Source: Thermovirgaceae bacterium
GTDB lineage: Bacteria > Synergistota > Synergistia > Synergistales > Thermovirgaceae
Direction of reading: 5' to 3'
DNA length: 64,000 nucleotides
NCBI GenBank assembly: GCA_046542505.1
Contig: JBKHBH010000001.1
Coordinates: forward strand, 770 to 64,769
In this document: positions 1,824 to 16,145 of the stretch, piece by piece
Layout: every line of letters starts with the position of its first letter
Position numbering within the stretch: the stretch's first letter is position 1
The notes under the pieces: generated by a model
What the model saw: the letters and a program-made list of their open reading frames with translations, nothing else
Database searches by the model: none
Told to the model about the DNA's origin: nothing
Position numbers and translations under genes: made by a program

Positions 1824-3374
1824 TTATCCCTGACTGGGTTCCTTGAAAAGGGGCCTTCCTTTTACCAGGGAAATCCCGTAAACAGTTACGATCAAAACGA
1901 CCAGAGTGATTGCCAAAGACACGATTCCCGAAGCGACGAATCCGGCGACGAGGTAGCCGATGGTTGCCGCAAAGGCCGCTGTCATGGCATAGGGAAGCTG
2001 GGTGTTGACGTGATCAATGTGGTCACAGCTTGACCCAATGGACGAAAGAATGGTTGTATCCGAGATTGGCGAGCAATGGTCGCCGAAGAGGCCTCCGCTC
2101 AGAACGGCACCGATGGCGGGGAAGATGGACAGGTCCATTGCAAGTGCCAGGGGTATGGCGATGGGCATGAAGATGGCGAAGGTTCCCCAGGACGTTCCTG
2201 TGGAGAAGGCCGTGAAGGCGGCGGGTATGAAAATGAGCGCATAGATGAGCGTCGGATTGACCAGTTTCTGGGCTACTGAGACGACGAAGGGTGCCGTTCC
2301 GACGTCGCTGCAGACACTGCCGATGGACCAGGCCAGGACAAGAATCGTCAGGGCTTCGACCATTCCGCGAACACCCTCAAGCCAGGTGAGAAAACCGTCG
2401 CCGAAATTGAAGACCTTTGTCTGGATGGACATTATGAGTGCGACGACGCCTGCAGCAAAGAAGGCCATGATGAGTGACGGCATGGTGCTCGAGTTCCTGA
2501 TGGCCTCAAAGAAGGTCCGTTCGGGGTAGTTCCCGGTCCACAGGAACATGGCGAAAAGGGTAATGAGCAATGCTGCGATAGGCAGAATCATGGACCAGAT
2601 TGTGGGCCTGGCCTCTTTGGGCATTTCTGTCGTGACATCCTCGCGCATGGGTCGGGCGTCGTCTCCGAGGAGTTTGCCTTCGTTAAAGGCTCTTTCCTCA
2701 GCGGCTTTCATCGGTCCGAATTCCAGGTTGGTAACGGCGATGATGAGAACCATGAGGATGGCAGCAATGGTGTAAAACTGGAACGGCACAGCTTCCATAA
2801 ATGCCCCGATAACGTTGTCCTGGATTCCTGCGTTTTCGAACTCCGTCTTCAACAGGCCCATGACGTAGGCGCCCCATGCCGTGATCGGAAGAAGCAGAGG
2901 AACCGCTGCACTGGTAGAGTCCGTGATGTAAGCCAGTTTTTCCCTCGATACTCGAACCCTGTCGGTGATCGGTTTGAAGACCGGACCGACTACGACGGGG
3001 TTTGTGGAATCACTGAAAAAGACGCCGAGGCCGCCGAGCCACGTAACGATCTGCGCACTCCTGCGGCTTTTGACGTATTTCCGCATCGATTCCGCAAAGG
3101 CGTGGGCCCCGCCGCCACGCTCGAGGAGCATGGCAAAGCCGCCGACCATGATGGTCATGAGAAGCACCGATGCGTTCCATGAATTAGCCATACTGCCAAG
3201 AATGAATTCGCGGAAGGTATCGACGATGCCAACTACCGGGTTCCATCCGGCGAGCATTGTAGCCCCGATCCAGACGCCGACAAAAAGACTGAGAATAGTC
3301 TGTTTGGTCCACATTGCCAGTGCGATGGCGAGAACCGGAGGCAACAATGAAAGAACTCCCATGGTTTCTTCCAT
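1824..3374 (-). CDS. NhaC-family Na+/H+ antiporter-like membrane transporter (516 aa)
   Basis: Polytopic hydrophobic protein. The N-terminal LLPPVLAIALAMWTK and SDSTNPVVVGPV / ITDSTSAAV segments are typical of the NhaC family. ATG at 3374. Confidence 0.7.
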   Translation of the reverse strand: MEETMGVLSLLPPVLAIALAMWTKQTILSLFVGVWIGATMLAGWNPVVGIVDTFREFILGSMANSWNASVLLMTIMVGGFAMLLERGGGAHAFAESMRKYVKSRRSAQIVTWLGGLGVFFSDSTNPVVVGPVFKPITDRVRVSREKLAYITDSTSAAVPLLLPITAWGAYVMGLLKTEFENAGIQDNVIGAFMEAVPFQFYTIAAILMVLIIAVTNLEFGPMKAAEERAFNEGKLLGDDARPMREDVTTEMPKEARPTIWSMILPIAALLITLFAMFLWTGNYPERTFFEAIRNSSTMPSLIMAFFAAGVVALIMSIQTKVFNFGDGFLTWLEGVRGMVEALTILVLAWSIGSVCSDVGTAPFVVSVAQKLVNPTLIYALIFIPAAFTAFSTGTSWGTFAIFMPIAIPLALAMDLSIFPAIGAVLSGGLFGDHCSPISDTTILSSIGSSCDHIDHVNTQLPYAMTAAFAATIGYLVAGFVASGIVSLAITLVVLIVTVYGISLVKGRPLFKEPSQG

Positions 3375-3490: not shown

Positions 3491-3515
3491 ATTTGTCAAC
3501 AAAATAATGACAAAT
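3491..3515. promoter_or_regulatory. Inverted repeat ATTTGTCA-N9-TGACAAAT in the divergent control region (candidate GntR-type operator)
   Basis: Perfect 8-bp arms at 3491-3498 and 3508-3515. It is nested in a larger imperfect palindrome (AAAAACAAAAG 3478-3488 / CTTTTGTTTTT 3532-3542), in an AT-rich 330-bp gap between divergent operons. Confidence 0.4.
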
Positions 3516-3557
3516 TACAAAAAAGAAATGACTTTTGTTTTTAACGAAAAATACTTG

Positions 3558-3585
3558 TTGCACATAAACGATAATCGTTTATACT
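3558..3585 (+). promoter_or_regulatory. Candidate sigma70-type promoter TTGCAC-16 nt-TATACT whose spacer is filled by a perfect 19-bp palindrome ATAAACGATAATCGTTTAT (3564-3582)
   Basis: Hexamers and spacing read directly. The palindrome has 9-bp arms around A3573. It lies about 120 nt upstream of the first plus-strand gene. Confidence 0.45.
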
Positions 3586-3701
3586 TCACTCCCAGAAGTC
3601 ATACCATTGAAGCTGCATACTGTCAATATCAAAGCAGCGTAATGAAATACATATGCAGTGAAGGGATCCAATGGATGGTCAAATACAAGCGAGGTGGGAG
3701 A

Positions 3702-4430
3702 ATGACTAATTCGTCTGATGCACGCATTGCCATACTCTGCTGGGAGGAAGGACATGTCCCGAAGGGGCTTGTCCAGCTCGAGAGCCTGGTGGGAAACAGC
3801 ACGAATCTCGATTCTTACCCCTTCCCGGTCCGGCTCTGCAGGATCAGGGGAGCCAATCTACAGACGGTTCTGGAAAGCCCGAGCCGCGAAGTGCTCCAGA
3901 GAATGATCGAGACGTCACAGGAACTGGTATCCGAAGGAATCCAGGCAATCACCACGAGCTGCGGGTTCAATGCCGTGTTTCAGCGGGAGCTTGCGGAAGC
4001 CGTCGACGTTCCCGTTTTCACGTCCAGCCTCCTTCAGATCCCCTTCGTGACGAACCTGCTTGCCCCCGAAAAGGCGATCTCCGTCATAACAGCCAAAAAG
4101 ACATCCCTGAAAAAAGAACATTTCGAGGCGGCGGGTATCATGCCCACCATGAACGTCGAGGTTTTCGGTATGGAAGAGTCCCCCGAGTGGAACAAGATAT
4201 TCACTGCTCCCGACGAACCCATCGATCTCGGTATCGTGGAGAAAGATGTCGTTGAAACAGCTCGTTCCGCCGTCAAAAAACGTCCCGATACGGGTGCCGT
4301 CGTCCTCGAATGCACGGACCTGCCGCCCTTCGCCCAGGCCATCCGGGATACAACGGGGCTTCCCGTCTTTGATTTCGTCACCATGATGGGATTTGTCGCC
4401 AGATCTCTGGGCATAGTGTCAGCTTACTGA
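3702..4430 (+). CDS. Asp/Glu/hydantoin-racemase superfamily protein (242 aa) with both catalytic-type cysteines
   Basis: ATG 3702 is preceded by GAGGTGGGAG, and the longer ORF from 3507 runs through AT-rich promoter DNA. Motifs AITTSCGFNA and VVLECTDLPPFA resemble the two Cys motifs (xCNTA / GCTELP) of the family. Confidence 0.55.
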   Translation: MTNSSDARIAILCWEEGHVPKGLVQLESLVGNSTNLDSYPFPVRLCRIRGANLQTVLESPSREVLQRMIETSQELVSEGIQAITTSCGFNAVFQRELAEAVDVPVFTSSLLQIPFVTNLLAPEKAISVITAKKTSLKKEHFEAAGIMPTMNVEVFGMEESPEWNKIFTAPDEPIDLGIVEKDVVETARSAVKKRPDTGAVVLECTDLPPFAQAIRDTTGLPVFDFVTMMGFVARSLGIVSAY

Positions 4431-4471: not shown

Positions 4472-5794
4472 ATGAAAACTGTTCTCATACTTGGAGCAGG
4501 CCGGGTGTCTGGCCCCTGTATCGAGTACCTCGTGAGAAAAGGCGGCTGCAAAACCATCGTGGCCGATATCTCGACTGAAAACCTCGCCGAAACGGCGAAA
4601 TTCTTTCCCTCGGTGGAAACTGTGGAATCCGATGTGGTGACAGAAGCGGGAAGCTTGATGGACCGGTTTTCCCCCGATCTTGTGATCAACCTGATGCCGC
4701 CCTTTCTAATGGCTCCTGTGGCAAGGCTTTGTCTTGACAAGGGGATCCACCTGGTACACCCCGCCTATCTCGATGAAGAGACCCGGGCCATGGATGAGGA
4801 ATGCCGCGAGGCGGGACTGGTTTTCGTCACGGAGCTGGGGCTCGACCCCGGGATCGATCATATGTCTGCGGTGAGCACCATCAATGAGATCCATAACGAG
4901 GGCGGAAAGGTAGAGTCCTTCAGTTCGGTCTGCGGGGCACTGCCTGCAGCGGATGCCAATACGAATCCCTGGGGCTATAAGTTGTCATGGTCGCCGTCGA
5001 GTCTGATCGGCGCCAGCAAACGGACGGCGCGTATTCTGCAGGACGGAAGGGAAATCCTCTGGCCCGACGGTGAAACCTATGAACACGTCAGGTTTTATGA
5101 AATCCCGCGCCTGGGAACTTTCGAGATCTACGCCAATGCCGATTCCATTCCTTACCGGGAATTCTACGAGATCCCCGAAGCGAAGGATATCTACCGGGGA
5201 ACCATCAGATATCCCGGATGGTGCGAGACCATATGCCACCTGAACGCCATGGGGTTTTTCGAGGAAGATGCAAAGGACCTCACGGGGCTCACCTTCAGTC
5301 AGTTCACGGCCCAACAGGCGGGAGCCGAAAAAAGCGCGGATCCGAAAAAAGCTGTCTGCGATTTTCTCGGATGCAGGGAATGGGCAACGGTAATCCTCCG
5401 CATGGAATGGCTCGGGTTCTTTGACGACCGATCCCTGCCTTTCGAAAAGGGATCCCCGAGAGACGTCATCTCGGCGCTTTTTTCCGAAAAACTTGTCTAC
5501 CAACCTGGCGAGAAGGACCTCGTGATCCTTCGCGACGAGGTGACCGCCTCCTATCCGGACGGAACGAAAAAGCGCCATTCCTCGACCCTCGTCGATTACG
5601 GCATCCCCGATTCATGGTCCTCGATAGCGAGAACCACCGGGATCCCGCCGGCCATCGCCGCCCGCTTCATTCTCAAAGGCAGGATTCTGACGCCGGGCGT
5701 TCATATCCCGGTCCTGCCCGAAATCTACGAGCCCCTTCTCGAGGAGCTCAGGGGCGAAAATATCAGCATGCAGGAAGAAGTTATTTCCCTTTAA
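4472..5794 (+). CDS. Saccharopine dehydrogenase/reductase (LYS9-like) family oxidoreductase, paralog 2 (440 aa)
   Basis: ILGAGRVSGPCIEYL Rossmann motif. GLDPGIDHMSA, NPWGYKLSWSP and GTIRYPGW closely resemble saccharopine reductase motifs. Confidence 0.75.
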   Translation: MKTVLILGAGRVSGPCIEYLVRKGGCKTIVADISTENLAETAKFFPSVETVESDVVTEAGSLMDRFSPDLVINLMPPFLMAPVARLCLDKGIHLVHPAYLDEETRAMDEECREAGLVFVTELGLDPGIDHMSAVSTINEIHNEGGKVESFSSVCGALPAADANTNPWGYKLSWSPSSLIGASKRTARILQDGREILWPDGETYEHVRFYEIPRLGTFEIYANADSIPYREFYEIPEAKDIYRGTIRYPGWCETICHLNAMGFFEEDAKDLTGLTFSQFTAQQAGAEKSADPKKAVCDFLGCREWATVILRMEWLGFFDDRSLPFEKGSPRDVISALFSEKLVYQPGEKDLVILRDEVTASYPDGTKKRHSSTLVDYGIPDSWSSIARTTGIPPAIAARFILKGRILTPGVHIPVLPEIYEPLLEELRGENISMQEEVISL

Positions 5795-5797: not shown

Positions 5798-7105
5798 TTG
5801 ACCTTCTCGAAAGGAAGACCGGGTTTGTACAGACTCGAAGATCAAGGGCGCAAAACGCGTTATACCGATGAGCTGGAGAATGTTAGGGCCGAACTGGACA
5901 GCCGGAACGCAGCAGGCCTGATCCTCCCCTCCCTGCCACCGGCAAAGGCCCCGGATATTTCCGGAGCCTTTGCGTCGCCCTGTAGTGGAAAGAGGCTCCG
6001 GGATATTGCCCGTGGAACAAAAAAGGCGGTGATCCTGGTCTCCGACGCAACGCGGAAGGTTCCCACGGCCGATGTCCTGCCGGCTGTCATGGAGGAACTT
6101 CTCGCTGCCGGGATGGACGAACGGAACGTTACCGCCGTGGTAGCACTCGGGGTGCACCGCAGAGCCACGGAATCGGAAATGCGGGATATTCTCGGCTCAT
6201 GGTGGGAACGCATTTTTATCGAGAACCACGATGCCTTCTCAGCCGAACGACTGGTGGAAATCGGGACCACAAGTCGCGGAACGCCCCTGTCTGTTAACAG
6301 GACGGCTTACGAGGCTGACCTGCGGATTACCGTTGGCAAGGTAGAGCCACACGAGTTTGCGGGCTTTTCGGGCGGCAGGAAATCCGTACTGCCGGGGATC
6401 GCCGGCGAGCGGACGATTCGGGAAAACCACAACCCCCAATGGCTGATGGCCCCCGGTGCGGTTCCGGGGCGCCTCGAGGACAACCCCATTCATGAGGATA
6501 TGCTGGAGGCGGCGGGCATGCTGGGTGTAGATTTTGCCGTAAATCTACTCGTCGATGAAAGCAACAGGCTTCGTGAGGTTTTTTGCGGTGATCCCGTCGA
6601 AAGCCATGAAGCGGCGGTGGCCGCCTCTGTCAGGGACCTCCGCGTGAAACTTGGGGAGCCGCCGAAGATTGTGGTCACCACTCCCGGCGAGCCGCTCAAT
6701 ATCTGCCTGTACCAGGCTGTCAAGCCCCTGATCGCCCTTGCTCCGGTCTTGGCCCCTGGAGGGACCATGATTCTTTACGCGAAATGCCCGGAGGGGATCG
6801 ATTCCCCCGACATGGTGCGACCCTTCGAGGAAGCCGAGAGTCTTGACGGGGCCCTCGACTATCTCGTCGAAAATTACCGGATCCAGATGGACCATGCCCT
6901 TTTGCTCGCAAAGATCATGAAGGGCGGAACGGAAATCGTCGTCGTGGCTCCGACAGTTCCCGACGAAACGATCGAAAAGATGCACATGACCCCCGCAGGA
7001 ACGCTGCAGGAAGCCGCCGATTATGCCTTGAACCGGACGCGGAAAGAAGCAGGGGTGCTCTTTTTCCCTTGCGCGCAACGTTTCCTGCCCGAAATCGGAA
7101 GGTGA
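5798..7105 (+). CDS. LarA-family (nickel-pincer cofactor dependent) 2-hydroxyacid racemase/epimerase homolog (435 aa)
   Basis: TTG start 4 nt after the preceding stop. Motifs SDATRKVPT, ALGVHRRAT, EPHEFAGFSGGRKS and RENHNP align by eye with the LarA catalytic His/His, cofactor-tethering Lys and Ni-ligand His. Confidence 0.75.
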   Translation: MTFSKGRPGLYRLEDQGRKTRYTDELENVRAELDSRNAAGLILPSLPPAKAPDISGAFASPCSGKRLRDIARGTKKAVILVSDATRKVPTADVLPAVMEELLAAGMDERNVTAVVALGVHRRATESEMRDILGSWWERIFIENHDAFSAERLVEIGTTSRGTPLSVNRTAYEADLRITVGKVEPHEFAGFSGGRKSVLPGIAGERTIRENHNPQWLMAPGAVPGRLEDNPIHEDMLEAAGMLGVDFAVNLLVDESNRLREVFCGDPVESHEAAVAASVRDLRVKLGEPPKIVVTTPGEPLNICLYQAVKPLIALAPVLAPGGTMILYAKCPEGIDSPDMVRPFEEAESLDGALDYLVENYRIQMDHALLLAKIMKGGTEIVVVAPTVPDETIEKMHMTPAGTLQEAADYALNRTRKEAGVLFFPCAQRFLPEIGR

Positions 7106-7109: not shown

Positions 7110-7811
7110 ATGGAAACACTCAGTGAAAGCAAACCAATGAAGCGAAGACTGCTCAGTGACGATGTAGTCGAGCATCTCATCGATGAGATCCTTGGAGGGG
7201 GCCTCAAACCCGGGGACAGGGTGGTGGAGCTCCGCCTGGCCAAGAGTATGGGCGTGAGCCAGAGTACCGTCCGGGAAGCGATGAGGGAGCTCGAAGTCAG
7301 GGGATACCTGTATTCTCTTCCTTTCAAAGGGGCCTTCGTGAGAGAGTTCAATCTGGAAGGACTGGCGGATTATTTCAGGACCAGGACGGAACTGGAAATG
7401 ATCGCCGCCGGGTGGGCCTGCGAGCAGGAATACGCCGGAGTGGACTGGGAAGCCATGAAGACATGCCTTGAGGAGATGGCAAAGGCTACAGCTTCCGGGG
7501 ACCATATCACCCTCAGGAAGGCGGACATGCGGTTTCACAGGGCCATTGTCGAAGGTGCAGGGAGCCAGTCACTGCTGGCGGCATGGAATGCCCTGAGTCA
7601 CAGGTTCTGGGGATATTACGGCATGCACATGGAACAGAAGATTGCGAGGTTCAAGATCCAGGAGAGCCTGCACAGGCAGATTTTCACCCTCTACAGGCAA
7701 GGAAGGCTCGAGGAGCTCCGGCAGCAACTTCTGGATCACTATATAGACGTGAATACCGCTCAAAAGCTGGACCACAGGACAAAGGCGGATTCAGGTGAGG
7801 AGATGAAATGA
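7110..7811 (+). CDS. GntR/FadR-family transcriptional regulator (233 aa)
   Basis: N-terminal wHTH LRLAKSMGVSQSTVREAMRELEVRGYL with an all-helical FCD-like C-terminus. Its stop overlaps the next start (ATGA at 7808-7811). Confidence 0.8.
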   Translation: METLSESKPMKRRLLSDDVVEHLIDEILGGGLKPGDRVVELRLAKSMGVSQSTVREAMRELEVRGYLYSLPFKGAFVREFNLEGLADYFRTRTELEMIAAGWACEQEYAGVDWEAMKTCLEEMAKATASGDHITLRKADMRFHRAIVEGAGSQSLLAAWNALSHRFWGYYGMHMEQKIARFKIQESLHRQIFTLYRQGRLEELRQQLLDHYIDVNTAQKLDHRTKADSGEEMK

Positions 7812-9091
7812 TGTATTTCGGGAAAAAAAGATTCGAAATCAGCCGGATAGAAGCACGGGAAATCCTGGATTGCCGATTCAACCCGACCGTCCAGGTTGAC
7901 GTCTGGGTCAATGAGGAACATTTCGGCAGGGCCGATGTTCCGGCCGGGAGGTCCCGGGGCGAGCGTGAGGCCTGGGAGCTCAGAGACGGCGATGAAGCCG
8001 TCTTCGGCGGGCTTGGAGTCTTGCAGGCCGTGAAGAACATCAGGGAAGGGATTGCCCCGGCGCTCAGAGGCATGGATGTCCGGGACCAGAGGTTGATCGA
8101 CCTGTCAATGATCGACCTTGACGGCACGGCAAACAAGAAGAACCTGGGCGGAAACGCCATCATCGGCGTGTCCCTGGCCTGCGCCAGGGCGGCGGCCGCA
8201 GCCTGCGGCCTTCCCCTTTACAGGTATATCGGGGGCAACGCCCATGTATTGCCCGTCCCCCTGCTCAACTACATCAACGGCGGTCGCCTCACGTCGAATG
8301 ACCTGGATTTCCAGGAAATCTGCATCTTTCCGGTGGGTGCGGAAACCTTCCGGGAGGCCATGATCATCGGCTGGGATGTCTACAACGAACTTCGGGAGAT
8401 TCTTGCCTCGAAATATGGCAAGATTGCCGTCAACGTTGGTGACGAAGGGGGATTTGCGCCACCCATTGTCAGCATCCGAGAGGCCATGGATCATCTCGTC
8501 AAGTCCGTCGAACAGGCGGGGCATGCGGAAAAGGTGGTTTACGGTTTCGACTGCGCCGCAAGCCATTTCTTTGACGCCGGGAAAAAGAAATACAGGCTCG
8601 AGGGCAAGGATCTCACCAGCGAAGAGCTTTTGACTTTCTACAAGGATCTGATCGCCCGGTACCCGATCGCCACCATGGAAGATCCCTTTGATGAAGACGA
8701 CGTGGAGGGCTTCCGGATGGCCACGGAACAGCTGGGTATCCAGATCGTCGGTGATGATTTCCTCTGCACCAACCCCAGGCTCATCAAGGAGAGATCCCAC
8801 GCCTGCAATGCCCTGCTTTTTAAATTCAACCAGGTCGGGACGCTTTCAGAGGCTTTCGATGCGGCCGAGAGCGCATACCGTCATGGTTTCGGGATCATGG
8901 TGTCGGAACGTTCCGGCGAGACGGAAGACCCCTTCCTGGCGGATGTCTCCGTGGGACTGAACACCGGGCAGATCAAGACGGGCGCGACCCGTTCCGAACG
9001 GACGGTGAAATACAACCGGCTGCTTGAGATCGAGGCGGAACTCGGCAAAGCGGCCCTTTATGCGGGAAACTTCTACAGGAATCCTTTCTAG
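7808..9091 (+). CDS. Enolase-family protein, divergent paralog (427 aa)
   Basis: Enolase motifs GDEGGFAP, MEDPFDEDD, VGDDFLCTNP, FKFNQVGT, SGETED and GQIKTG are present. Two canonical His positions are replaced (NGGRLTSN, VSERSGETED). Confidence 0.8.
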   Translation: MMYFGKKRFEISRIEAREILDCRFNPTVQVDVWVNEEHFGRADVPAGRSRGEREAWELRDGDEAVFGGLGVLQAVKNIREGIAPALRGMDVRDQRLIDLSMIDLDGTANKKNLGGNAIIGVSLACARAAAAACGLPLYRYIGGNAHVLPVPLLNYINGGRLTSNDLDFQEICIFPVGAETFREAMIIGWDVYNELREILASKYGKIAVNVGDEGGFAPPIVSIREAMDHLVKSVEQAGHAEKVVYGFDCAASHFFDAGKKKYRLEGKDLTSEELLTFYKDLIARYPIATMEDPFDEDDVEGFRMATEQLGIQIVGDDFLCTNPRLIKERSHACNALLFKFNQVGTLSEAFDAAESAYRHGFGIMVSERSGETEDPFLADVSVGLNTGQIKTGATRSERTVKYNRLLEIEAELGKAALYAGNFYRNPF

Positions 9092-9149
9092 GTCGAAAGG
9101 CGGCTTGACGCATCGGGGAGGAGCATGAAACCCGGGAGGATGCGTTTTT

Positions 9150-10523
9150 GTGAGGCTGATCAGGGTGAACTATTTCAGAAATCTACACCAACTTACGCAA
9201 CACGGAAACGACGCTCTTCGCAGGGAAACGCTGGACATACTCAATTTTGCCCTCGCAAAGGCGGATCCTTTTGTCGCCGCAAGGAACTGTGTGGTCATGG
9301 AGGGCGAGGAGCTCTCCATTTGCGGCAGAACAATGGATCTGTCCCGGTTCGATAAGGTTTACGTCATCGGGGCGGGCAAGGCAAGCTTCGGGATCGCCCG
9401 GGCCCTCGAGGAAGTTTTGGGGCCGCGGATAACGAAAGGCCTTGTCATTTGCAAGGACGGGCTTCAAGAGCGACTCGAGCATGTTGAGATCGCCTGCGCC
9501 AGTCATCCTGTTCCCAACGAGACGAGTTTGCGCAAGGCCGGGGAAATTCTGGATCTGATGCGGCAGACCGGGCCCAGGGACCTTGTGATCGCATGCATAA
9601 CGGGAGGGAGTTCTGCGTTGATGTCCCTTCCCGTCCCGGAGATTCCCTTCGAGGACAAGCGGACGCTCAACCGTATTCTGCTGACCAGCGGTGCGAACAT
9701 TCTCGAGATCAACGCCGTGAGAAAACATGCAAGCCTCGTCAAGGGCGGAAGGCTCGCTCAGGCAATGCATCCCGGGACCCTTTTGATTAACTTGACCGTT
9801 TCAGATGTCATCGGCGATCCTCTCGACTGCATCACCGATCCTACCGTCCCTGATTCCACATCCTTCGAGGATGCCCGCAGGACCCTTGACAAGTACGGTC
9901 TCTGGGAGCGGGTGCCGGAAACGGTAGCGAAATATTTCAGGGATCCTCCGCCGGACCGGGAAACGCCGAAGTCCTTCGATGACCGGGTCTTCGAGAGCTT
10001 TATCATTGTTCCCGGCGAGGCCGCAAGCGAGGGCGCTGCTGAAAGGGCAAGGGAGCTAGGATACGAAACCATGATCCTCTCCACCATGTTCGAAGGCGAA
10101 AGCCGGGAACTGGGGTGCACCTTCGGGTATATCGCGAAAGAGATCATCCGCAAGGAGAGACCGCTGAAACGGCCCTGTGCCGTCATCGGCGGCGGAGAGA
10201 CGGTGGTGACCTTCGAGAGCGAGAATGAGGGCCTGGGGGGGCCGAACCAGGAGTTTGCCCTGGGTGCTGCTACGGAAATATCAAGGATCGGTGATGTGGT
10301 CGTCGCCGGACTGGATACCGATGGGACCGACGGACCGACGAACTTCGGAGGAGGAATCGTCGACAACTGCACCGTGGACCGGGCCGAGGTGCTGGGCCTG
10401 GATATCCACACTGCCTTGAAACGGCATGAGGTGTCCGGGCTGCTGGGAGAGCTCGGCGATCTTCTTATTACCGGGAACACCGGGACCAACGTGAACGACC
10501 TCAAGGTAATGATCCTGCGCTAG
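9150..10523 (+). CDS. Glycerate 2-kinase (DUF4147 + MOFRL, TtuD/GckA-type; 457 aa)
   Basis: GTG start with GGGAGGA 10 nt upstream. VYVIGAGKAS, ITGGSSAL, VRKHAS.VKGG, IGGGETVV and DTDGTDGP motifs are typical of the family. Confidence 0.75.
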   Translation: MRLIRVNYFRNLHQLTQHGNDALRRETLDILNFALAKADPFVAARNCVVMEGEELSICGRTMDLSRFDKVYVIGAGKASFGIARALEEVLGPRITKGLVICKDGLQERLEHVEIACASHPVPNETSLRKAGEILDLMRQTGPRDLVIACITGGSSALMSLPVPEIPFEDKRTLNRILLTSGANILEINAVRKHASLVKGGRLAQAMHPGTLLINLTVSDVIGDPLDCITDPTVPDSTSFEDARRTLDKYGLWERVPETVAKYFRDPPPDRETPKSFDDRVFESFIIVPGEAASEGAAERARELGYETMILSTMFEGESRELGCTFGYIAKEIIRKERPLKRPCAVIGGGETVVTFESENEGLGGPNQEFALGAATEISRIGDVVVAGLDTDGTDGPTNFGGGIVDNCTVDRAEVLGLDIHTALKRHEVSGLLGELGDLLITGNTGTNVNDLKVMILR

Positions 10524-10607: not shown

Positions 10608-11852
10608 ATGTCTGACGGAAAGGTTCTGTTGTTGGGTTGCGGCATGCAGGGCAAGGCGGCCCTTTATGACCTCCTCGGGAGTGATGGGGTGACCAAAATT
10701 GTCGTCGCCGACGCTTCTTCGAAATTGCAGGAAGATGTCGCCAGGCTTCAGTCGAATAAGGTGGAGGCCGTGAAACTTGATGCGGACAACTGCACTCAGG
10801 TGAAGGAATTGATGGCCGAAGCCGATGTGGTGGTGGAACTCCTTCCGGGATCTTTCGCCTTCGGAATGGCCGAGTTGGCCGTCGAGGTGGGTGTCGACCT
10901 GATCACGTCCATGTACCTGGTCAACCCTGGAGAACAGGATGCCGCCAAAGCAGAAAAACAGAGGAAAGCGCTCTCGGCCTTGTCGGACCAGGCCAGGCAA
11001 AAAGGCGTGACCATCCTCCAGGAATTCGGGATGGATCCGGGCGTGGATCTCGTTTTGGGAAAAAGGGCCCTTGAAGAGCTGGACGAAGTCAAGGCCTTTC
11101 ATTCCTATGGTGCAGGATTCCCCGAACTCTCCGCTGCAGATAACCCGCTGAGGTACAAATTCACCTGGTCGATCATAGGCGTGATGAAATCCTATCTACG
11201 GCCGGCAAAAATACTGGACGAAAACCGTGTCGTCGAGATCCCGGCCGATGAGATGTTTGCACCGAAAAACACACACCTTCTGGATCTGGCGGAAATGGGA
11301 AGCCCCCTGGAATGTTTTCCCAATGGCGACGCCCTCGCCTTTGCCGAGGTATTTGGTCTGGGTGAAGCCGTAGAATCCATGGGGCGATATATCTGCCGGT
11401 GGCCGGGACACGGATCGTTCTGGTGGAAGATGGCAAAATCAGGGTTTTTGAGGGCTGAGCCGGTCTCGATGAACGGTGCCGGGGATGTGGCGCCCGTGGA
11501 ATTCTGTGCCTCCCTCCTGGCCTCGCAGGATCAGTTCTATTACAGGGAGGACGAACGAGACGTCGCCCTGGTCCGCTCCGATGTGCGGGGCACCCGGGAT
11601 GGAAAACCCGTCCGCGTCGTCTGGCAGATAACGGATTACAGGGACTTGGCCACGGGATTTACGGCCATGCAGAGAACTGTCGGTTTCCCCATGTCCATCG
11701 GAGCGCAAATGATCATGGATGGAACCATCGACAAAAAGGGTGTCATCCACCCCATGGAAGTGCCCTTTGATCCCTTCATGAAAGAGCTCGGCAACAGAGG
11801 CATCCAGGCGGTTCGTTTCGAAGAAGAATGGGATGGTGACCTGAAGCCATGA
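10608..11852 (+). CDS. Saccharopine dehydrogenase-family oxidoreductase, paralog 3 (414 aa)
   Basis: LLGCGMQGKAALYDL Rossmann motif; GMDPGVDLV, NPLRYKFTWS and RWPGH motifs are parallel to paralog 2. Confidence 0.7.
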   Translation: MSDGKVLLLGCGMQGKAALYDLLGSDGVTKIVVADASSKLQEDVARLQSNKVEAVKLDADNCTQVKELMAEADVVVELLPGSFAFGMAELAVEVGVDLITSMYLVNPGEQDAAKAEKQRKALSALSDQARQKGVTILQEFGMDPGVDLVLGKRALEELDEVKAFHSYGAGFPELSAADNPLRYKFTWSIIGVMKSYLRPAKILDENRVVEIPADEMFAPKNTHLLDLAEMGSPLECFPNGDALAFAEVFGLGEAVESMGRYICRWPGHGSFWWKMAKSGFLRAEPVSMNGAGDVAPVEFCASLLASQDQFYYREDERDVALVRSDVRGTRDGKPVRVVWQITDYRDLATGFTAMQRTVGFPMSIGAQMIMDGTIDKKGVIHPMEVPFDPFMKELGNRGIQAVRFEEEWDGDLKP

Positions 11853-12781
11853 AGTTGCCCTTTGTCAAGGGGCACATGGGCGGGAACAGGATCCTGCTCT
11901 TGCCCGGGATCGACGGGACGGACCAGGAACTCCTGGATACGGGACTGAAGCTGCTTGACCATCTGTACCTGTGCGGCCACCAGGCCGGCTTCCTGTATGG
12001 AGGCCCGGATAACGGGGCTTTTCGGGTGCGCATTGTCGGCTATACGGCGAGGGATTTTCTTCCCGCCTGCGGAGGCCTGACACAGGTGCTTGGAGCCGCC
12101 GTCGGGGAAGGATACCTGGAAAGCGTATTGGGGCTACCTTCTGCCGAACGGGACGAGATACTCCTTGAGACCGACGGCGGGCCGGTCCCGATCCACATCG
12201 AAAACGGCCCCGCCGGAACATCCCGCGTCTTTACGGACATGACGGGTTTTGCCGAAGAATGTATGAGGCAGGGAGTGGAAAGGTTTTTCCTCGACGGAGT
12301 CGAGGCCCTCCGGTCGGGTGCCTTCCTCGTGGTCGATGCGAAAAAGGCGGCACTCAAGGGCGGCCCGGGGGATTTCGTCACTCTCGATGCAGAAGCCCGC
12401 GAGGTGCTGATAAGCCTTCAAAAGCGATTCAGAAATGTTTGTAACACGAACTCAAGGAACTTTGCCCTTTACGACCACGGGCCTTCGGGCGACGGCCCCA
12501 CCCGGGCGGTGTTCCCGCACGGAATCGAAGGAGGCCACATCGAACCCGCCTGTGGAACCGGCTCGGTCGCGTTGGCCCTCGGCCTTCTGGAAACAGGGGA
12601 ATTGTCGGGTCAGGTTCGTGATGGGACGATTACGACTGATCTCGAGACCGGGGGAGGACCGTGCCTGGGCGGTGACGAGAAAACCCGTGTGGACTTCGAA
12701 TACAGCGGTGGAACGCTGAAGAGGGCAAGGTTTTCTCATAGCAGGGTGGAGATTCTGGCGACGGGGGAAGTCAGCATATAA
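11849..12781 (+). CDS. DapF-fold-like two-cysteine racemase/epimerase candidate, paralog A (310 aa)
   Basis: ATGA overlap with the upstream gene. The N-terminus MKLPFVKGHMGGNRILLL resembles DapF MxFxKMHGLGNDFVVV. Cys74 in ACGGLTQVLG and a second Cys in IEPACGTGS are reminiscent of the DapF catalytic Cys pair. Confidence 0.5.
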   Translation: MKLPFVKGHMGGNRILLLPGIDGTDQELLDTGLKLLDHLYLCGHQAGFLYGGPDNGAFRVRIVGYTARDFLPACGGLTQVLGAAVGEGYLESVLGLPSAERDEILLETDGGPVPIHIENGPAGTSRVFTDMTGFAEECMRQGVERFFLDGVEALRSGAFLVVDAKKAALKGGPGDFVTLDAEAREVLISLQKRFRNVCNTNSRNFALYDHGPSGDGPTRAVFPHGIEGGHIEPACGTGSVALALGLLETGELSGQVRDGTITTDLETGGGPCLGGDEKTRVDFEYSGGTLKRARFSHSRVEILATGEVSI

Positions 12782-12873
12782 CCCCTTTGACCGGCCCGGC
12801 CTGCTGCGATGAGCATCGTCGCGCCGGGAAAGAATGTTCCCCGAAGGGGAAGGGCTAGAGGAGGCGAATCGAA

Positions 12874-13896
12874 ATGGCTTCATTGAAGGACAGTCCGCAG
12901 TATTATCACCGTGTGCTGGAACGAATTCCTCCGAGACCGACGCCGGCATTTTCGGAGGAAGGCATGCAGGAGCGCGTCTGGGGGCGCAGGTGGGGCGTTA
13001 AAAACGATGTGGGCACACTCAGGATGGTCATGCTCCACCGACCCGGCGAAGAGATCAACGTGATGAAAACCGGTGGCAAATATGACCCCGAAATCGAGGC
13101 TATCATCGACGAGGATGAGCAGTGGTATTTCAGATCCGACACGCCGCCGAGCCTGGAGAAGATGCAGGCGGAACACGACGCCTTTGCCAACCTCCTGCGT
13201 TCTGAAGGGATCGAAGTGGTCTACATGGATGGGGGATCGAAAGACCCCAACGCCATGTTCACCAGGGATATGGGGATGGTCGTTGATGGAGGGGTGATTA
13301 TCTCGCGGATGGGCCCGGTGGGTAAGCCTTACGGCACGGGACGCCGCGGCGAAGAGCTCTATCTCACCCGCAAGGTTGCAGAACTCGGGATGCCCATTTA
13401 CCGGACCATCGCCGGCGAGGGGCTGATGGAGGGAGGTAGTTTCTGCCTACTCGATGAAAAACATGCCGCCATCGGCATGAGTTTCCGTGGCAACGAGAGC
13501 GGGGCGGACCAGGTTGAAGAAATTTTGAAGCTTCTTGGCATCGAACTGATCCGGGTTCCCCTCCCGGGATTTGCCATGCACCTGGACGGTGGCATCGTCA
13601 TGGTGGACCACGACAAGGCGGTCGTTAACGTGGAACGGCTCCCGTACTGGTTTATCGATCGCCTGAAGGAGCTTGGTATCGAGATGATCTTTGCCGATTA
13701 CCGTGACGTGGCCTACTCGGTGAACGTTCTGACCATCCGTCCCGGGGTGGTTGTCATGGATGAGCGGGGCAAGTGGACCCGCGAGAGCCTCGAAAAACGG
13801 GGCGTGACCGTTCATCCCGTCTGTTGGGAAGAATGCACGAAGCATGGAGGTGGCGTCCACTGTTCCTCTTTGCCGCTGGTTCGTGAAAAGGACTGA
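12874..13896 (+). CDS. Guanidino-group-modifying (arginine deiminase / amidinotransferase fold) enzyme, short form (340 aa)
   Basis: AGAGGAGG RBS. Motifs LHRPGEE, EHDAFANLLRSEGIEV, MFTRD, EGGSF, AMHLDG and the C-terminal GGGVHCSSLPL (catalytic Cys) fit the ADI/DDAH/amidinotransferase pattern. Confidence 0.6.
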   Translation: MASLKDSPQYYHRVLERIPPRPTPAFSEEGMQERVWGRRWGVKNDVGTLRMVMLHRPGEEINVMKTGGKYDPEIEAIIDEDEQWYFRSDTPPSLEKMQAEHDAFANLLRSEGIEVVYMDGGSKDPNAMFTRDMGMVVDGGVIISRMGPVGKPYGTGRRGEELYLTRKVAELGMPIYRTIAGEGLMEGGSFCLLDEKHAAIGMSFRGNESGADQVEEILKLLGIELIRVPLPGFAMHLDGGIVMVDHDKAVVNVERLPYWFIDRLKELGIEMIFADYRDVAYSVNVLTIRPGVVVMDERGKWTRESLEKRGVTVHPVCWEECTKHGGGVHCSSLPLVREKD

Positions 13897-13996
13897 AAAT
13901 GGCGAGGGGATTTACTGTCGAAAAGGATAGCCGGGTGCAGGCGTCTGGATCATCCGGCATCGGCAAAGGAGTGAATCTGGCGAGGAGATTTTCTGA

Positions 13997-15148
13997 TTGA
14001 AGCGGATTTACCGCCTTCTCCTGAAGTTGATAACGGCCAATTTCGGCATCATGTGCTTTGGCGACATCTACTTTCTTGTCGCCTTGTACATGGAGAGCTA
14101 CGGAATCGATGACCCCGAGACGATCGGGTGGATCCTGTCGGCATACTTTGCCGCATCGGCGTTGTCCCGCCCCTTCGTGGGATGGGTGGTGGAAAAGTTC
14201 TCCTTCAAGCCGGTGCTCATCGTGGCTTCTGTGTCCTGTGTGGCCAGCGGGGTGGGCGTGGCCCTTTCGGGGTCGTCGGTTCCTCTCATTCTCTTTTTCC
14301 GGGCCGTGGCGGGCCTCTCATCGAGCCTTTTCCTGGTGGCCATAACGACCTACCAGACCCTTGCGGTTCCGGAAGAAGTCAGGGGCTCATCCTTCACTCT
14401 TGTGACGGCGGGTACCATCGCGCCCCTGGTCACGGTGGTGCCGCTTGCGGAATGGCTTTTGCGTGCGGGAAAGCCGGGGCTGTATATCTGGTTTCCAGTC
14501 CTGCCGGCCTTTCTGTGTCTTTTCGCATCCATGTCGCTTCGGCCTTCCGACGGCGTGGTCACCGAAAGCCGTGACTGGGGATCGTACCGCGAGGTTTTTA
14601 CCCATCCAGCACTCAGGATCCTTTTCCCCTCTGTGATCTGTTTTGCCATGACCGATGCCGCCATCGTCTCTTTTGCGGGTCTCGCGCTCGAGAAAAAGCT
14701 GGTGGCATCGGCCTTCATCTCTTCCCAGGCCTTTACAGCCGTTTTGATACGAGTCTTCGGTTTCCGCCTCATGGACATCATGCCCCGAAGCCGGCTGGCG
14801 GCCTTGTCCTTTCTTGTGACCGGCGGGAGCCTCTTTGCGGCGACCTTTACAGAGAGCAACACGGGCTTCATGGCGCTGGGGATCATTTATGGAGTCGCCA
14901 TGGGATACGGATTCCCCCTGCACCTTTCCCTCATTGGCGACGCCGTGTCCGAAAGGCTGCGGCCAAAGGCCACGGCCATGGTCTGGTTCCTCATGTCGGG
15001 CTGTTTTTTCATCTCTCCCGTCATCACGGGGTACCTGGCGAGGCGTTTCACCTTCGCCGTCGCCTACAGGATCATCATGGGCTGCATTATTATTGTGACT
15101 CCCCTGATTCACAGGCGGTTCACGAGATCTTTCAAAAGCGACAGCTGA
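13997..15148 (+). CDS. MFS-type transporter (383 aa)
   Basis: About 11-12 hydrophobic segments; TTG start after GGCGAGGAG. The start is uncertain (alternative ATG at 14051). Confidence 0.6.
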   Translation: MKRIYRLLLKLITANFGIMCFGDIYFLVALYMESYGIDDPETIGWILSAYFAASALSRPFVGWVVEKFSFKPVLIVASVSCVASGVGVALSGSSVPLILFFRAVAGLSSSLFLVAITTYQTLAVPEEVRGSSFTLVTAGTIAPLVTVVPLAEWLLRAGKPGLYIWFPVLPAFLCLFASMSLRPSDGVVTESRDWGSYREVFTHPALRILFPSVICFAMTDAAIVSFAGLALEKKLVASAFISSQAFTAVLIRVFGFRLMDIMPRSRLAALSFLVTGGSLFAATFTESNTGFMALGIIYGVAMGYGFPLHLSLIGDAVSERLRPKATAMVWFLMSGCFFISPVITGYLARRFTFAVAYRIIMGCIIIVTPLIHRRFTRSFKSDS

Positions 15149-15197
15149 TTCTTCCGGGGTTTGAGTAGTTGCCGTGTGAGGGAGGGGGAGATTGATC

Positions 15198-16145
15198 ATG
15201 AGACTGGATTTCATCAAGGGACATATGGGAGGAAATACCATTGTCATTCTGAACGGGGCGCAGGTGCCGCTGGAGAGAACTCTTGACCTTTCGCTGAAAG
15301 TTCTCGGGGGAAAATACCTGTATTCCCACGAAGCGGGGATCATATCTCCCGGGGGCGAGGATGTGGATCTTGATGTTCGCATCGTCGGCCGTGCTTCCGG
15401 AAAATTTCTGACGGCCTGCGGGGGTCTGACCCAGGTCCTGGGGAAGGCCCTGAGTCGTACGGAACGGGCAAGAAGATTCGGTCTCGATTTGCAAAGGCGG
15501 AAAACCGTCATGTTGGGGACTCCGGGCTGCGTGACCCCCATTCGGGTTTTTCCCGAAAGAGAGGCCTTTACCACGGAAACCGACATGACAAAGTTCGTCG
15601 AAGAAATTTACGGACTCGGTCTCGAGCCCCTGATTCTTTCGGGAATCAGCGCCTGGAAGATCGGGAAATTTCTTGTCATTCATTCCGACGAACTCCGCAA
15701 GGCGTTGCCCGGTGCCGATGTAGAAAGCATTGACGACCTTTCGAAAAAAAAGATCGTCCAGATGCAGCAGGAGTTTGTCTCCACGTTCAGCGATGCCGCT
15801 TGTGACGTTGCTCTTTACGACGATCACGCCGTCGGCATGCAGAAAGGTTTCCGCGTCCTTTTCCCACATTCCATTCCCGAGGGGCTGATCGAGCCGTCCT
15901 GTGGAACCGGGTCCATTGCCGTCTGTGTTGCCGCCCTGTACGAGCAACAGGGTTCAAGGGCCGTTTCGGCCGCTCCGGAATCCGGGATGGCTGTGACTTT
16001 CGACATGGAATCAGGAGGGGACGTGTCCCTGGGAGGGCCTGACATCAGCCGGGTCGAGATGATCCTCAGAAACGGAGCCATCACAAAAGCGACGTTTTCC
16101 CACAGCAACGTAGAAGTTACCTGTGAGGGGCACCTGTATCTATAG
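15198..16145 (+). CDS. DapF-fold-like two-cysteine racemase/epimerase candidate, paralog B (315 aa)
   Basis: ATG 15198 lies 7 nt after GGAGGGGGAG (the track ORF starts at TTG 15192). It shares FIKGHMGGN, VRIVG, FLTACGGLTQVLG, TDMTKF, FPH, IEPSCGTGS and FSHSNVE blocks with paralog A. Confidence 0.5.
   Translation: MRLDFIKGHMGGNTIVILNGAQVPLERTLDLSLKVLGGKYLYSHEAGIISPGGEDVDLDVRIVGRASGKFLTACGGLTQVLGKALSRTERARRFGLDLQRRKTVMLGTPGCVTPIRVFPEREAFTTETDMTKFVEEIYGLGLEPLILSGISAWKIGKFLVIHSDELRKALPGADVESIDDLSKKKIVQMQQEFVSTFSDAACDVALYDDHAVGMQKGFRVLFPHSIPEGLIEPSCGTGSIAVCVAALYEQQGSRAVSAAPESGMAVTFDMESGGDVSLGGPDISRVEMILRNGAITKATFSHSNVEVTCEGHLYL

What the first reader, a model, noticed from the sequence alone, without database searches (positions are those of the whole stretch)
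11849..16145. Two divergent DapF-like paralogs with a conserved Cys pair flank an ADI-fold hydrolase and an MFS transporter
Seen: proteins at 11849-12781 and 15198-16145 share blocks F(V/I)KGHMGGN, VRIVG, FL(P/T)ACGGLTQVLG, TDMT.F, FPH, IEP(A/S)CGTGS and FSHS.VE. The N-terminal block resembles the DapF start (KMHGLGNDF). The two Cys sit roughly where DapF Cys73/Cys217 sit (Cys74 and about Cys235 in paralog A).

Inference: these are cofactor-independent two-base epimerases of a subfamily I do not recognise. The duplication suggests two different stereocentres or substrates.
Basis: partly seen in the sequence, partly recalled or inferred. Interest (0 to 1): 0.6.

Follow-up and report, generated by a model that had tools for sequence, protein, structure and literature searches.

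The report
Two paralogs of unnamed epimerase family
Two genes in a Synergistota catabolic island belong to a rare, unnamed branch of the DapF/proline-racemase fold that keeps both catalytic cysteines and is repeatedly linked to saccharopine-pathway-type dehydrogenases, so they are probably cofactor-free racemases for a lysine-like amino acid, exact substrate unknown.

Summary
Genes at 11849-12781 (A) and 15198-16145 (B) encode 310- and 315-aa proteins that are 37% identical (E 1e-58), flanking an ADI-fold hydrolase and an MFS transporter.

- **Family:** Neither matches any Pfam or NCBIfam model. Both fold with high confidence (pLDDT 94) into the DapF/proline-racemase fold (Z about 25). Profile alignments put Cys74 and Cys235 on the catalytic cysteines of DapF, ProR and HisR. 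The family is small: 69 clusters at 50% identity among 1.84 billion proteins. It occurs in anaerobes of several phyla.
- **Not a recent duplication:** B belongs to a Synergistota clade whose gene overlaps an AASS/LYS9-like saccharopine-dehydrogenase gene. A groups with a third copy in this genome that sits beside two canonical dapF genes. All three copies keep the same conserved core.
- **Context elsewhere:** The family recurs with SDH-like genes, once in an operon with a full split lysine-ketoglutarate reductase plus SDH pair, and with ADI-fold genes in three to four phyla.
- **Best reading:** These are two-thiol amino-acid racemases for a lysine-like or dibasic substrate in an accessory salvage island.

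"Different stereocentres" is not supported. The substrate is untested. The scan had separately noted one relative of this family on other DNA.

The parts
11849..12781 (+). Paralogue A (310 aa), an unnamed family of the DapF/ProR fold with Cys74 and Cys235. Its ATG overlaps the TGA of the upstream SDH-like gene (ATGA).
15198..16145 (+). Paralogue B (315 aa), same family with Cys74 and Cys235. It is an orthologue of the Synergistota copies that are coupled to an SDH-like gene.
12874..13896 (+). ADI/DDAH-fold guanidino-group hydrolase (340 aa). The FTRD, EGG, HLD and C-terminal GGGVHC motifs are present.
   Evidence: Orthologue-like neighbours of the family occur in other phyla.
13997..15148 (+). 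MFS transporter
10608..11852 (+). SDH3: saccharopine-dehydrogenase-family oxidoreductase, LYS9/AASS-SDH-like, translationally coupled to A.
4472..5794 (+). SDH2: second saccharopine-dehydrogenase-family paralogue. It is part of the conserved SDH3-EPI-NhaC-AGrac-SDH2 module.
3507..4430 (+). Asp/Glu/hydantoin-racemase-family protein (AGrac; NF005679), a conserved partner in the module.
1824..3374 (-). NhaC-family transporter. The position equivalent to this in other Synergistota modules follows the EPI gene.
605..1765 (-). SDH1: third saccharopine-dehydrogenase-family paralogue.
5798..7105 (+). LarA-family (nickel-pincer) 2-hydroxyacid racemase homologue.
   Evidence: A LarA-like gene is next to the EPI gene in L037.
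7110..7811 (+). GntR/FCD regulator. The same family precedes SDH3-EPI in other loci.
7808..10523 (+). Enolase paralogue (7808-9091) and DUF4147/MOFRL glycerate-2-kinase-like gene (9150-10523).

Best explanation
Both genes encode active members of a small, so far unnamed family inside the DapF/proline-racemase superfamily.

Mechanism (inferred from homology): PLP-independent 1,1-proton transfer at the alpha-carbon of an amino acid. Two thiols carry it out, Cys74 and Cys235, each at the N-terminus of one of the two central helices of a pseudo-symmetric two-domain fold. Asn13 corresponds to DapF Asn11. Glu232 corresponds to HisR Glu206 and C. glutamicum DapF Glu212. Both probably hold the substrate's amino groups.

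Role (inferred from conserved gene order): the enzyme interconverts D and L forms, or epimers, of a lysine-like or dibasic amino acid. This would let L-specific dehydrogenases of the saccharopine-dehydrogenase family oxidise it in an accessory salvage island.
- B is the resident partner of the Synergistota module SDH3-EPI-NhaC-AGrac-SDH2.
- A is a member of another clade. Together with an ADI-fold hydrolase and an MFS transporter it now sits between SDH3 and B, which looks like an insertion or rearrangement.

The most likely single substrate is lysine (D-Lys to L-Lys) or a close relative such as DAP, ornithine, an arginine-derived amino acid or saccharopine. I rate the two-thiol racemase mechanism at about 0.85. 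I rate a lysine-like substrate at about 0.35-0.4.
For: Fold and catalytic residues:
- AF2 pLDDT is 93.8 for A and 93.5 for B, with the same topology. Each Cys sits just before a central helix (75-86, and 236-248 in A or 236-256 in B).
- Foldseek matches DapF at E 9e-15. VIA gives Z 25.8 for ProR, 25.6 for HypE, 25.4 for DapF and 24.6 for HisR over residues 1-310.
- The family profile against the PDB hits HisR at 4e-6, ProR at 6e-5 and DapF at 4e-4, with both Cys aligned.
- hhalign against DapF gives probability 96.2%, E 2e-9.
- Cys74, Cys235, Glu232, Arg219 and Gln79 are invariant. A, B and the third copy keep every residue that is at least 94% conserved.
- The role of the acid three residues before the second Cys is taken from PMC11602996.

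Linkage to SDH-family genes:
- 20 of 80 genome loci have an SDH-family gene beside the family gene. These fall in at least six separate tree clades and five phylum labels.
- In Synergistota the SDH3 stop overlaps the EPI start, and SDH3-EPI-NhaC-AGrac-SDH2 is conserved across genera. In the window the overlap is ATGA.
- SDH3 matches yeast LYS9 at 9e-35 and the AASS SDH domain at 4e-31.
- In L052 one tight operon reads GntR-SDH-ABC(SBP_bac_5)-EPI-AGrac-Amidohydro_3-LKR-SDH. Its LKR matches the human AASS LKR domain at E 6.5e-73 over its full length. L079 repeats Amidohydro_3-EPI with SDH and LKR nearby.

Accessory nature: only 1 of 5 other genomes of the genus has the family, and a 99%-complete single-contig genome has none.
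Against: - No member of the family has been assayed, and the substrate is inferred only from neighbours.
- This genome has no LKR homologue. If lysine is the substrate, an SDH paralogue would have to act as a lysine 6-dehydrogenase.
- The recurring ADI-fold and OTCase neighbours point instead to arginine, citrulline or ornithine.
- The third copy sits next to two canonical dapF genes, and the family is enriched in DapL-positive, DapF-negative genomes. Both point to DAP.
- Glycerate kinase, enolase and LarA in the island are not explained by a lysine route.
- I could not inspect model coordinates, so the statement that the two Cys face one pocket rests on alignment and secondary structure only.
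Confidence: 0.55

Rival explanations
1. They are diaminopimelate epimerases in function: a very divergent DapF that interconverts LL- and meso-DAP, here used for DAP or peptidoglycan salvage.
For: - DapF is the best Foldseek match, and hhalign aligns both Cys and Asn13 to DapF.
- The third copy heads a conserved operon EPI-C-DapF1-DapF2-(EamA), next to an aminotransferase and an M20 hydrolase.
- In the order around G007, 0 of 44 genomes with DapL (TIGR03542) have canonical DapF, and 31 of 44 have this family. EPI and DapF co-occur in only 2 of 115 genomes.
- DapL and LysA are adjacent there, with no Ddh.
- Neighbours such as nagB, a GlmU-like gene, a LysM gene, AGrac and LarA fit cell-wall salvage.
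Against: - This genome already has two genes passing the DapF equivalog model and no LysA or DapL-type gene.
- The DapF hairpin with the Glu-Arg distal-site pair is missing in the hhalign alignment.
- 13 of 44 DapL-positive genomes lack the family although MurE is found in 41 of 44 (binomial p 6e-6), so it is not the universal replacement.
- 9 of 20 diverse genomes that carry the family also have canonical DapF.
- Bipolaricaulota mostly lack DapF whether or not they have the family.
- The complementary pattern is confounded by phylogeny.
Confidence: 0.17
2. They are racemases for arginine, citrulline or ornithine (or another guanidino or ureido amino acid) and work with the adjacent ADI-fold hydrolase.
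For: - An ADI-fold gene of the same cluster lies beside the family gene in 11 loci of Bacillota, Bipolaricaulota and a Desulfovibrio-labelled contig. It lies 9 kb downstream in two Synergistaceae loci, and next to A in the window.
- Two OTCase-like genes precede ADI-EPI in Bipolaricaulota.
- O-ureidoserine racemase DcsC is a structural neighbour at Z 24.1.
- The aminotransferase by the third copy resembles GntC and VioD, which act on arginine derivatives.
- The NhaC gene has a faint ArcD-like hit.
Against: - Most SDH-coupled modules have no ADI-fold gene within 10 kb.
- The ADI-fold protein is far below every NCBIfam cut-off, so its own substrate is unknown.
- No carbamate kinase or OTCase lies in the island.
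Confidence: 0.15
3. They act on cyclic imino acids (proline, hydroxyproline or pipecolate) as racemases or epimerases. Possible substrates include the reduced cyclic products derived from the aldehydes that SDH-type enzymes make.
For: - ProR and HypE give the top VIA Z scores, 25.5-25.8.
- The ProR match covers residues 34-257 in a single stretch.
- Some family members carry precomputed PF05544 hits.
- The second motif, EPACGTG, resembles the ProR SPCGTG motif.
Against: - A and B give no PF05544 hit at E up to 0.1.
- The genome has a canonical ProR at E 1.5e-106.
- The first motif is ACGGLTQ, not the MCGH of ProR.
- Asn13 matches the DapF-type N-terminal motif.
- The Z scores of ProR, DapF and HisR are tied within 1.5 units.
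Confidence: 0.08
4. They are not racemases. They would be isomerases or dehydratases of the same fold (PhzF, PrpF, LigU or 3-Hyp-dehydratase-like), or one copy is an inactive relic.
For: PhzF, YddE and LigU appear among the structural matches at Z 22-23. A sits on a long branch of 1.02.
Against: - Both Cys are invariant in the whole family. From my own knowledge, PhzF and PrpF use other catalytic residues and 3-Hyp dehydratases have lost one Cys.
- A keeps every core residue and has 88-92% identical orthologues, so it is under selection.
Confidence: 0.04

Closest known systems
Diaminopimelate epimerase DapF (PF01678, TIGR00652)
   Same: Two-domain pseudo-symmetric fold. The catalytic Cys pair sits at the N-termini of the central helices. 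The N-terminal Asn motif is shared (family GGN against DapF GNDF). Best Foldseek match; hhalign probability 96%.
   Different: About 15-17% identity. No Pfam hit, and far below the TIGR00652 cut-off. The first motif is CGGLTQ instead of CGNG. The DapF hairpin carrying the distal-site Glu-Arg pair is absent. The family has its own invariant residues Arg219, His224 and His297. It co-exists with two canonical dapF genes in this genome.
Proline racemase / 4-hydroxyproline 2-epimerase (PF05544)
   Same: Same fold with the highest Z (25.5-25.8). A similar second-Cys motif (P-x-C-G-T-G). A Cys-Cys pair.
   Different: No PF05544 hit for A or B. No MCGH motif. About 35 residues shorter. The genome has its own canonical ProR.
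Histidine racemases HisR (F. nucleatum) and CntK (S. aureus)
   Same: Best profile-to-PDB hit (9cr1, 4e-6). An acidic residue three positions before the second Cys (family Glu232, HisR Glu206). The N-terminal strand motif aligns.
   Different: B scores 17.8 bits against a cut-off of 400 on NF052224, and A gives no hit. The family proteins are about 45 residues longer. There are no staphylopine-type neighbours.
Other DapF-fold amino-acid racemases with unusual substrates: O-ureidoserine racemase DcsC, 2,4-diaminobutyrate racemase PddB
   Same: They show that the fold has repeatedly been recruited for basic or ureido amino acids. DcsC scores Z 24.1. PddB is described in PMC8225329.
   Different: No detectable sequence-family relationship beyond the superfamily. 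Those enzymes are biosynthetic (antibiotic or polymer), whereas this context looks catabolic.
Saccharopine pathway of lysine catabolism (AASS: LKR + SDH domains)
   Same: The family's most frequent partners are AASS-SDH/LYS9-like genes. One operon has a split LKR + SDH pair.
   Different: As far as I know, no racemase is part of the known saccharopine pathway. The window's genome lacks an LKR.

Membership tests
DapF/ProR-like superfamily (DAP-epimerase-like fold) | Two structurally similar alpha/beta domains with the whole chain superposable on solved members | tested here: met
   Z 21-26 to more than 100 chains over residues 1-310. Foldseek gives 106 matches at E <= 0.001. Models have pLDDT 93.8 and 93.5.
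DapF/ProR-like superfamily (DAP-epimerase-like fold) | One catalytic Cys at the N-terminus of the central helix of each domain | tested here: met
   Cys74 precedes helix 75-86. Cys235 precedes helix 236-248 in A and 236-256 in B. Both align to the catalytic Cys of DapF, ProR and HisR and are invariant in the family. The distance between the thiols was not measured because no coordinates were available.
Diaminopimelate epimerase (PF01678 / TIGR00652) | Score above the family model's curated cut-off | tested here: not met
   No Pfam hit at E <= 0.1 for A or B. On TIGR00652, B scores 12.8 bits against a cut-off of 114.65 and A gives nothing.
Diaminopimelate epimerase (PF01678 / TIGR00652) | Distal-site residues that bind the second amino-acid end of DAP (Asn64, Asn157, Asn190, Glu208/Arg209 in H. 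influenzae numbering, from memory) | tested here: inconclusive
   In hhalign the segment holding the Glu-Arg pair is a gap in the family, and Asn64 aligns to a non-conserved position. The alignment is weak in that region, and the family has its own invariant Arg219 and Glu232.
Diaminopimelate epimerase (PF01678 / TIGR00652) | LL- to meso-DAP epimerase activity, or filling the DapF step of the pathway | tested here: inconclusive
   For: 0 of 44 DapL-positive genomes have DapF and 31 of 44 have the family. Against: 13 of 44 lack it although MurE is found in 41 of 44. This genome has two canonical DapF genes and no LysA. Activity is not testable here.
Proline racemase family (PF05544) | Score above the family model's cut-off | tested here: not met
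   No hit for A or B. Some other family members carry precomputed PF05544 hits.
Proline racemase family (PF05544) | Signature motifs around the two Cys (MCGH and DRSPCGTG, from memory) | tested here: inconclusive
   The first motif reads ACGGLTQ, which differs. The second reads IEP(A/S)CGTG, which is similar.
Histidine racemase HisR/CntK (NF052224, PF26317) | Score above the family model's cut-off | tested here: not met
   B scores 17.8 bits against a cut-off of 400, and A gives none.

The most novel reading that the evidence does not exclude
The family is a previously undescribed PLP-independent racemase or epimerase for lysine, or for a lysine-derived imino-diacid such as saccharopine. It would form a functional unit with AASS-type dehydrogenases and so define a prokaryotic route that feeds D-configured dibasic amino acids from necromass or cell walls into a saccharopine-type pathway. 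In one Bacillota lineage the same family may also be the unrecognised DAP epimerase of a DapL pathway that lacks DapF.
Probability: 0.3. Interest if true: 0.65.

Novelty: new variant of a known kind. Interest (0 to 1): 0.5.

Why it matters
- **New activities in an old fold:** Cofactor-independent racemases of the DapF fold have recently yielded unexpected activities (histidine, 2,4-diaminobutyrate, O-ureidoserine). This is a further compact, deeply conserved branch with no model in Pfam or NCBIfam and no studied member.
- **A concrete, testable partner:** The family is wired to saccharopine-pathway-type dehydrogenases in Synergistota, Bipolaricaulota, Aerophobetes and archaeal bins. That gives a hypothesis that can be tested directly, namely racemase plus SDH on lysine-like substrates. 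It bears on how amino-acid-fermenting anaerobes use D-amino acids.
- **A pathway gap:** A Syntrophomonadales lineage has DapL and LysA but no canonical DapF in 44 of 44 sampled genomes. This family is one candidate to fill that step.
- **Practical use:** A thermostable PLP-free racemase for basic amino acids could serve as a biocatalyst.

Tried and rejected
Contexts of the closest A-type proteins (P0009-P0016, 51-92% identical) could not be fetched.
- **A-type orthologues:** a metagenome scan with A found nothing closer than 44% identity. The species-representative genomes also gave nothing above 45%.
- **Fusions:** a search for fused, longer forms of the family found none. The tool itself says this is weak evidence.
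- **Regulatory RNA:** Rfam scans of window 1-20000 at E up to 0.1 and of 15 related loci at gathering thresholds found no riboswitch near any family gene, in particular no lysine riboswitch. Unrelated c-di-GMP, Moco and TPP riboswitches lie elsewhere in those loci.
- **"The family replaces DapF everywhere":** rejected.
  - Bipolaricaulota mostly lack DapF with or without the family (3 of 151 against 26 of 151).
  - 9 of 20 diverse carrier genomes also have DapF.
  - 13 of 44 DapL-positive genomes lack the family.
- **Canonical ProR homologues** occur in DapL-positive genomes both with and without the family, so they do not discriminate.
- **Aminomutase route:** D-lysine/D-ornithine aminomutase (PF09043) was not found in this genome, but the control genomes also gave no match, so this says nothing.
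- **Literature:** three searches found no description of this family. "DapF2" of GapMind 2026 is an Alr2-like protein, not this fold.
- **Promoters and terminators:** a consensus scan gave no convincing internal signals between 3300 and 16145.
- **Not run:** I ran no complex prediction, because I do not claim that A, B or SDH3 bind each other.


Full report
**1. What is there**

On the + strand, the window carries a run of genes.

| Coordinates | Gene |
|---|---|
| 10608-11852 | Saccharopine-dehydrogenase-family gene (SDH3; PF03435 + PF16653) |
| 11849-12781 | Paralogue A, 310 aa |
| 12874-13896 | ADI-fold gene (PF02274, E 1.7e-29) |
| 13997-15148 | MFS transporter |
| 15198-16145 | Paralogue B, 315 aa from the ATG |

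- The SDH3 stop and the A start overlap as ATGA.
- B has a strong ribosome-binding site.
- A and B are 37% identical over their whole length, E 1e-58.

**2. Which family**

Neither protein hits any Pfam model at E up to 0.1. In NCBIfam only B gives faint hits. These are histidine racemase at 17.8 bits against a cut-off of 400, and DapF at 12.8 bits against 114.65.

A word-indexed search found 115 clusters at 90% identity, almost all from metagenomes and unnamed. An exhaustive HMM search of 1.84 billion representatives found only 69 clusters at E <= 1e-30. Canonical DapF and ProR families stayed at or beyond the edge of detection. The family is therefore small and distinct.

In 51- and 56-sequence alignments the invariant residues include Met10-Gly11-Gly12, Cys74-Gly75-Gly76, Gln79, Arg219, Pro223, Glu232 and Cys235-Gly236-x-Gly238.

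**3. Fold and catalytic residues**

- AlphaFold2 with the family alignments gives pLDDT 93.8 for A and 93.5 for B, with the same topology.
- Foldseek against the PDB returns DapF (E 9e-15), then PhzF/YHI9, ProR, 3-Hyp dehydratase, O-ureidoserine racemase and HisR.
- VIA-align gives Z 25.8 for ProR, 25.6 for HypE, 25.4 for DapF and 24.6 for HisR, all over residues 1-310. These scores are effectively tied.
- The family profile against PDB sequences hits HisR (4e-6), ProR (6e-5) and DapF (4e-4), with both Cys aligned to the catalytic Cys.
- hhalign of the family against 14 canonical DapF sequences gives probability 96.2% and E 2e-9 over 257 columns. Cys74 and Cys235 fall on the two DapF Cys, and Asn13 falls on the Asn of GNDF. 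The DapF hairpin that carries the Glu-Arg distal-site pair is a gap in the family.
- In both models each Cys sits just before a central helix. The HisR paper describes the same arrangement for Cys67 and Cys209 (PMC11602996).
- That paper also equates HisR Glu206 (three residues before the second Cys) with C. glutamicum DapF Glu212 and HypE Asp232, all of which contact the substrate. The family's invariant Glu232 occupies this position.

I could not read model coordinates. "Both Cys face one pocket" is therefore inferred, not measured.

**4. A and B are not recent duplicates, and there is a third copy**

The genome (2.14 Mb, 93.5% complete) has three family genes: A, B and one on contig C81.

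In a maximum-likelihood tree of 78 members:
- B pairs with a Thermovirgaceae orthologue at 57% identity (SH-aLRT 99).
- B lies in a clade of 12 rows (B plus 11 Synergistota loci), and every one of those loci has an SDH-like neighbour.
- A sits on a long branch of 1.02. It falls in a starred clade (97) with the C81 copy, three other Synergistota members and Myxococcota.

All three copies keep every family residue conserved at 94% or more.

**5. Conserved contexts**

tblastn and ORF clustering over 80 genome loci, plus ten relatives' loci, show the following.

(a) *Synergistota "B module".* The order is (GntR)-SDH3-EPI-NhaC-AGrac-SDH2, with the SDH3 stop overlapping the EPI start, and it is conserved across several genera. 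In the window this module is broken.
- SDH3 is followed by A, then ADI and MFS, and only then by B.
- NhaC, AGrac and SDH2 lie upstream, together with LarA, GntR, enolase and a glycerate-kinase-like gene.
- This looks like an insertion or rearrangement that put A-ADI-MFS between SDH3 and B.

(b) *"C module".* EPI-C-DapF1-DapF2-(EamA) lies beside an aminotransferase (PRK07324, GntC/VioD-like) and an M20 hydrolase. It is conserved in six relatives. Both DapF genes pass TIGR00652.

(c) *Other SDH associations.* An SDH-family gene neighbours the family in 20 of 80 loci, in at least six separate tree clades. These include Aerophobetes, Bipolaricaulota and archaeal bins.

(d) *L052.* One tight operon reads GntR-SDH-SBP_bac_5 ABC-EPI-AGrac-Amidohydro_3-LKR-SDH.
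- The LKR matches the LKR domain of human AASS at E 6.5e-73 over its full length.
- L079 has Amidohydro_3-EPI with SDH and LKR close by.
- SDH3 of the window matches yeast LYS9 (9e-35) and the AASS SDH domain (4e-31).

(e) *ADI-fold genes.* A gene of the same cluster as the window's ADI-fold gene flanks the family in 11 loci of Syntrophomonadaceae, Bipolaricaulota and a Desulfovibrio-labelled contig. In Bipolaricaulota it is preceded by two OTCase-like genes. It also lies 9 kb downstream in two Synergistaceae loci.

(f) *Syntrophomonadaceae.* The neighbours there are nagB, a GlmU-like acetyltransferase, serA, thrC and a LysM protein.

**6. Is it a DapF replacement?**

Ten MAGs with "housekeeping" contexts had no PF01678 hit.

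In the order around G007 (115 genomes):

| Feature | Genomes |
|---|---|
| Family present | 44 |
| Canonical DapF present | 41 |
| Both present | 2 (Fisher p 7e-9, not corrected for relatedness) |
| DapL (TIGR03542) present | 44 |
| DapL with canonical DapF | 0 of 44 |
| DapL with the family | 31 of 44 |
| DapL with neither | 13 of 44 |
| MurE found among DapL-positive genomes | 41 of 44 |

- DapL and LysA are adjacent there, and Ddh is absent in four of five genomes tested.
- Because 13 DapL-positive genomes lack the family while MurE is found in 41 of 44, the family is not universal in that lineage (binomial p 6e-6).
- In Bipolaricaulota, DapF is nearly absent with or without the family.
- 9 of 20 diverse carrier genomes also have DapF.
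- The window's own genome has two canonical DapF genes and no LysA or DapL-type gene.

DAP epimerase remains a live rival for part of the family. It is not the best reading for A and B.

**7. Distribution**

Within the window's genus only 1 of 5 other genomes has any copy, and a 99%-complete single-contig genome has none. Within the taxonomic family, 11 of 18 genomes have one or two copies. The trait is accessory, which fits a catabolic or salvage role.

**8. Best explanation and its limits**

What is shown:
- The fold.
- The conserved Cys pair and core residues.
- The family's distinctness.
- The gene-order associations.

What is inferred:
- Two-thiol racemisation of an amino acid.
- The functional link to SDH-type dehydrogenases.
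- A lysine-like substrate, suggested by the LKR + SDH operon, by LYS9/AASS similarity, and by kinship to DapF, whose substrate is carboxy-lysine.

What is unexplained:
- The ADI-fold partners.
- The LarA, glycerate-kinase and enolase genes.
- The lack of an LKR in this genome.

No regulatory RNA, fusion protein or publication narrows the substrate.

**9. Novelty**

This is an unmodelled, unstudied branch of a well-known superfamily with the same predicted mechanism. I class it as a new variant of a known kind. The scan had separately noted one relative of this family on other DNA, a DapF-fold gene next to nagB (note e1-764732).

Noticed in passing
Genome contig C81 (locus L089) 5698-9423, minus strand: Operon of three DapF-superfamily genes in a row. 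It holds the third family copy (8467-9423), two genes that each pass the DapF equivalog model (7525-8370 and 6612-7508), and an EamA transporter. A GntC/VioD-like aminotransferase and an M20 hydrolase lie nearby. It is conserved in six related genomes.
   Followed up: partly
Genomes G006-G078 (order around G007); e.g. G008:C102:1820-4308: A Syntrophomonadales lineage has adjacent DapL (LL-DAP aminotransferase) and LysA genes but no canonical DapF in 44 of 44 sampled DapL-positive genomes, and no Ddh in 4 of 5 tested. The DAP epimerase step there is unassigned.
   Followed up: partly
Same genomes, MurE hits: MurE of the DapL-positive, DapF-negative genomes scores about 280-300 bits and aligns only to model positions 3-445. 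The DapF-positive genomes score about 520-550 bits. This may be a MurE of different amino-acid specificity.
   Followed up: no
L052:4287-16778: Tight operon with a split AASS (LKR 13304-14620 followed by SDH 14626-15975). It also holds a peptide/opine-type ABC importer, an Amidohydro_3 hydrolase, an Asp/Glu-racemase-family gene and the family gene. This looks like a prokaryotic saccharopine-pathway cluster with two racemases.
   Followed up: partly
L002:2157-6032; L076:3-3823; L078: A non-pyrrolysine MttB-superfamily methyltransferase gene sits next to the SDH and family genes in Aerophobetes and archaeal-bin contigs. This suggests a link to methylated amines.
   Followed up: no
L076 vs L078; L048 vs L049: Identical family proteins occur on contigs assigned to different phyla (Bathyarchaeota and Woesearchaeota; Culexarchaeota and candidate division Kazan). 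This probably reflects binning or labelling conflicts in the public MAGs.
   Followed up: no
Genome contigs C131, C64, C45, C36, C108: Parts of the island are duplicated elsewhere in the genome. C131 has a glycerate-kinase-like gene with two ADI-fold genes. C64 has NhaC plus an SDH2-like gene (49%). C45 has an SDH3-like gene (50%). C36 has an SDH1-like gene (36%). C108 has an MFS gene 74% identical to the window's. That makes six SDH-family paralogues in a 2.1-Mb genome.
   Followed up: no
window 7808-9091: The island's enolase is a second copy, only 46% identical to another enolase on contig C2. It still passes the enolase equivalog model (503 bits).
   Followed up: no
window 16383-16411: The best sigma-70-like promoter match of the region (11 of 12) lies just after B and before the trpE leader. 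It marks the downstream edge of the island.
   Followed up: no
L111:3908-4197: Two tandem c-di-GMP-I riboswitch aptamers lie about 6 kb upstream of the third-copy module in a related genome. They are probably unrelated to it.
   Followed up: no
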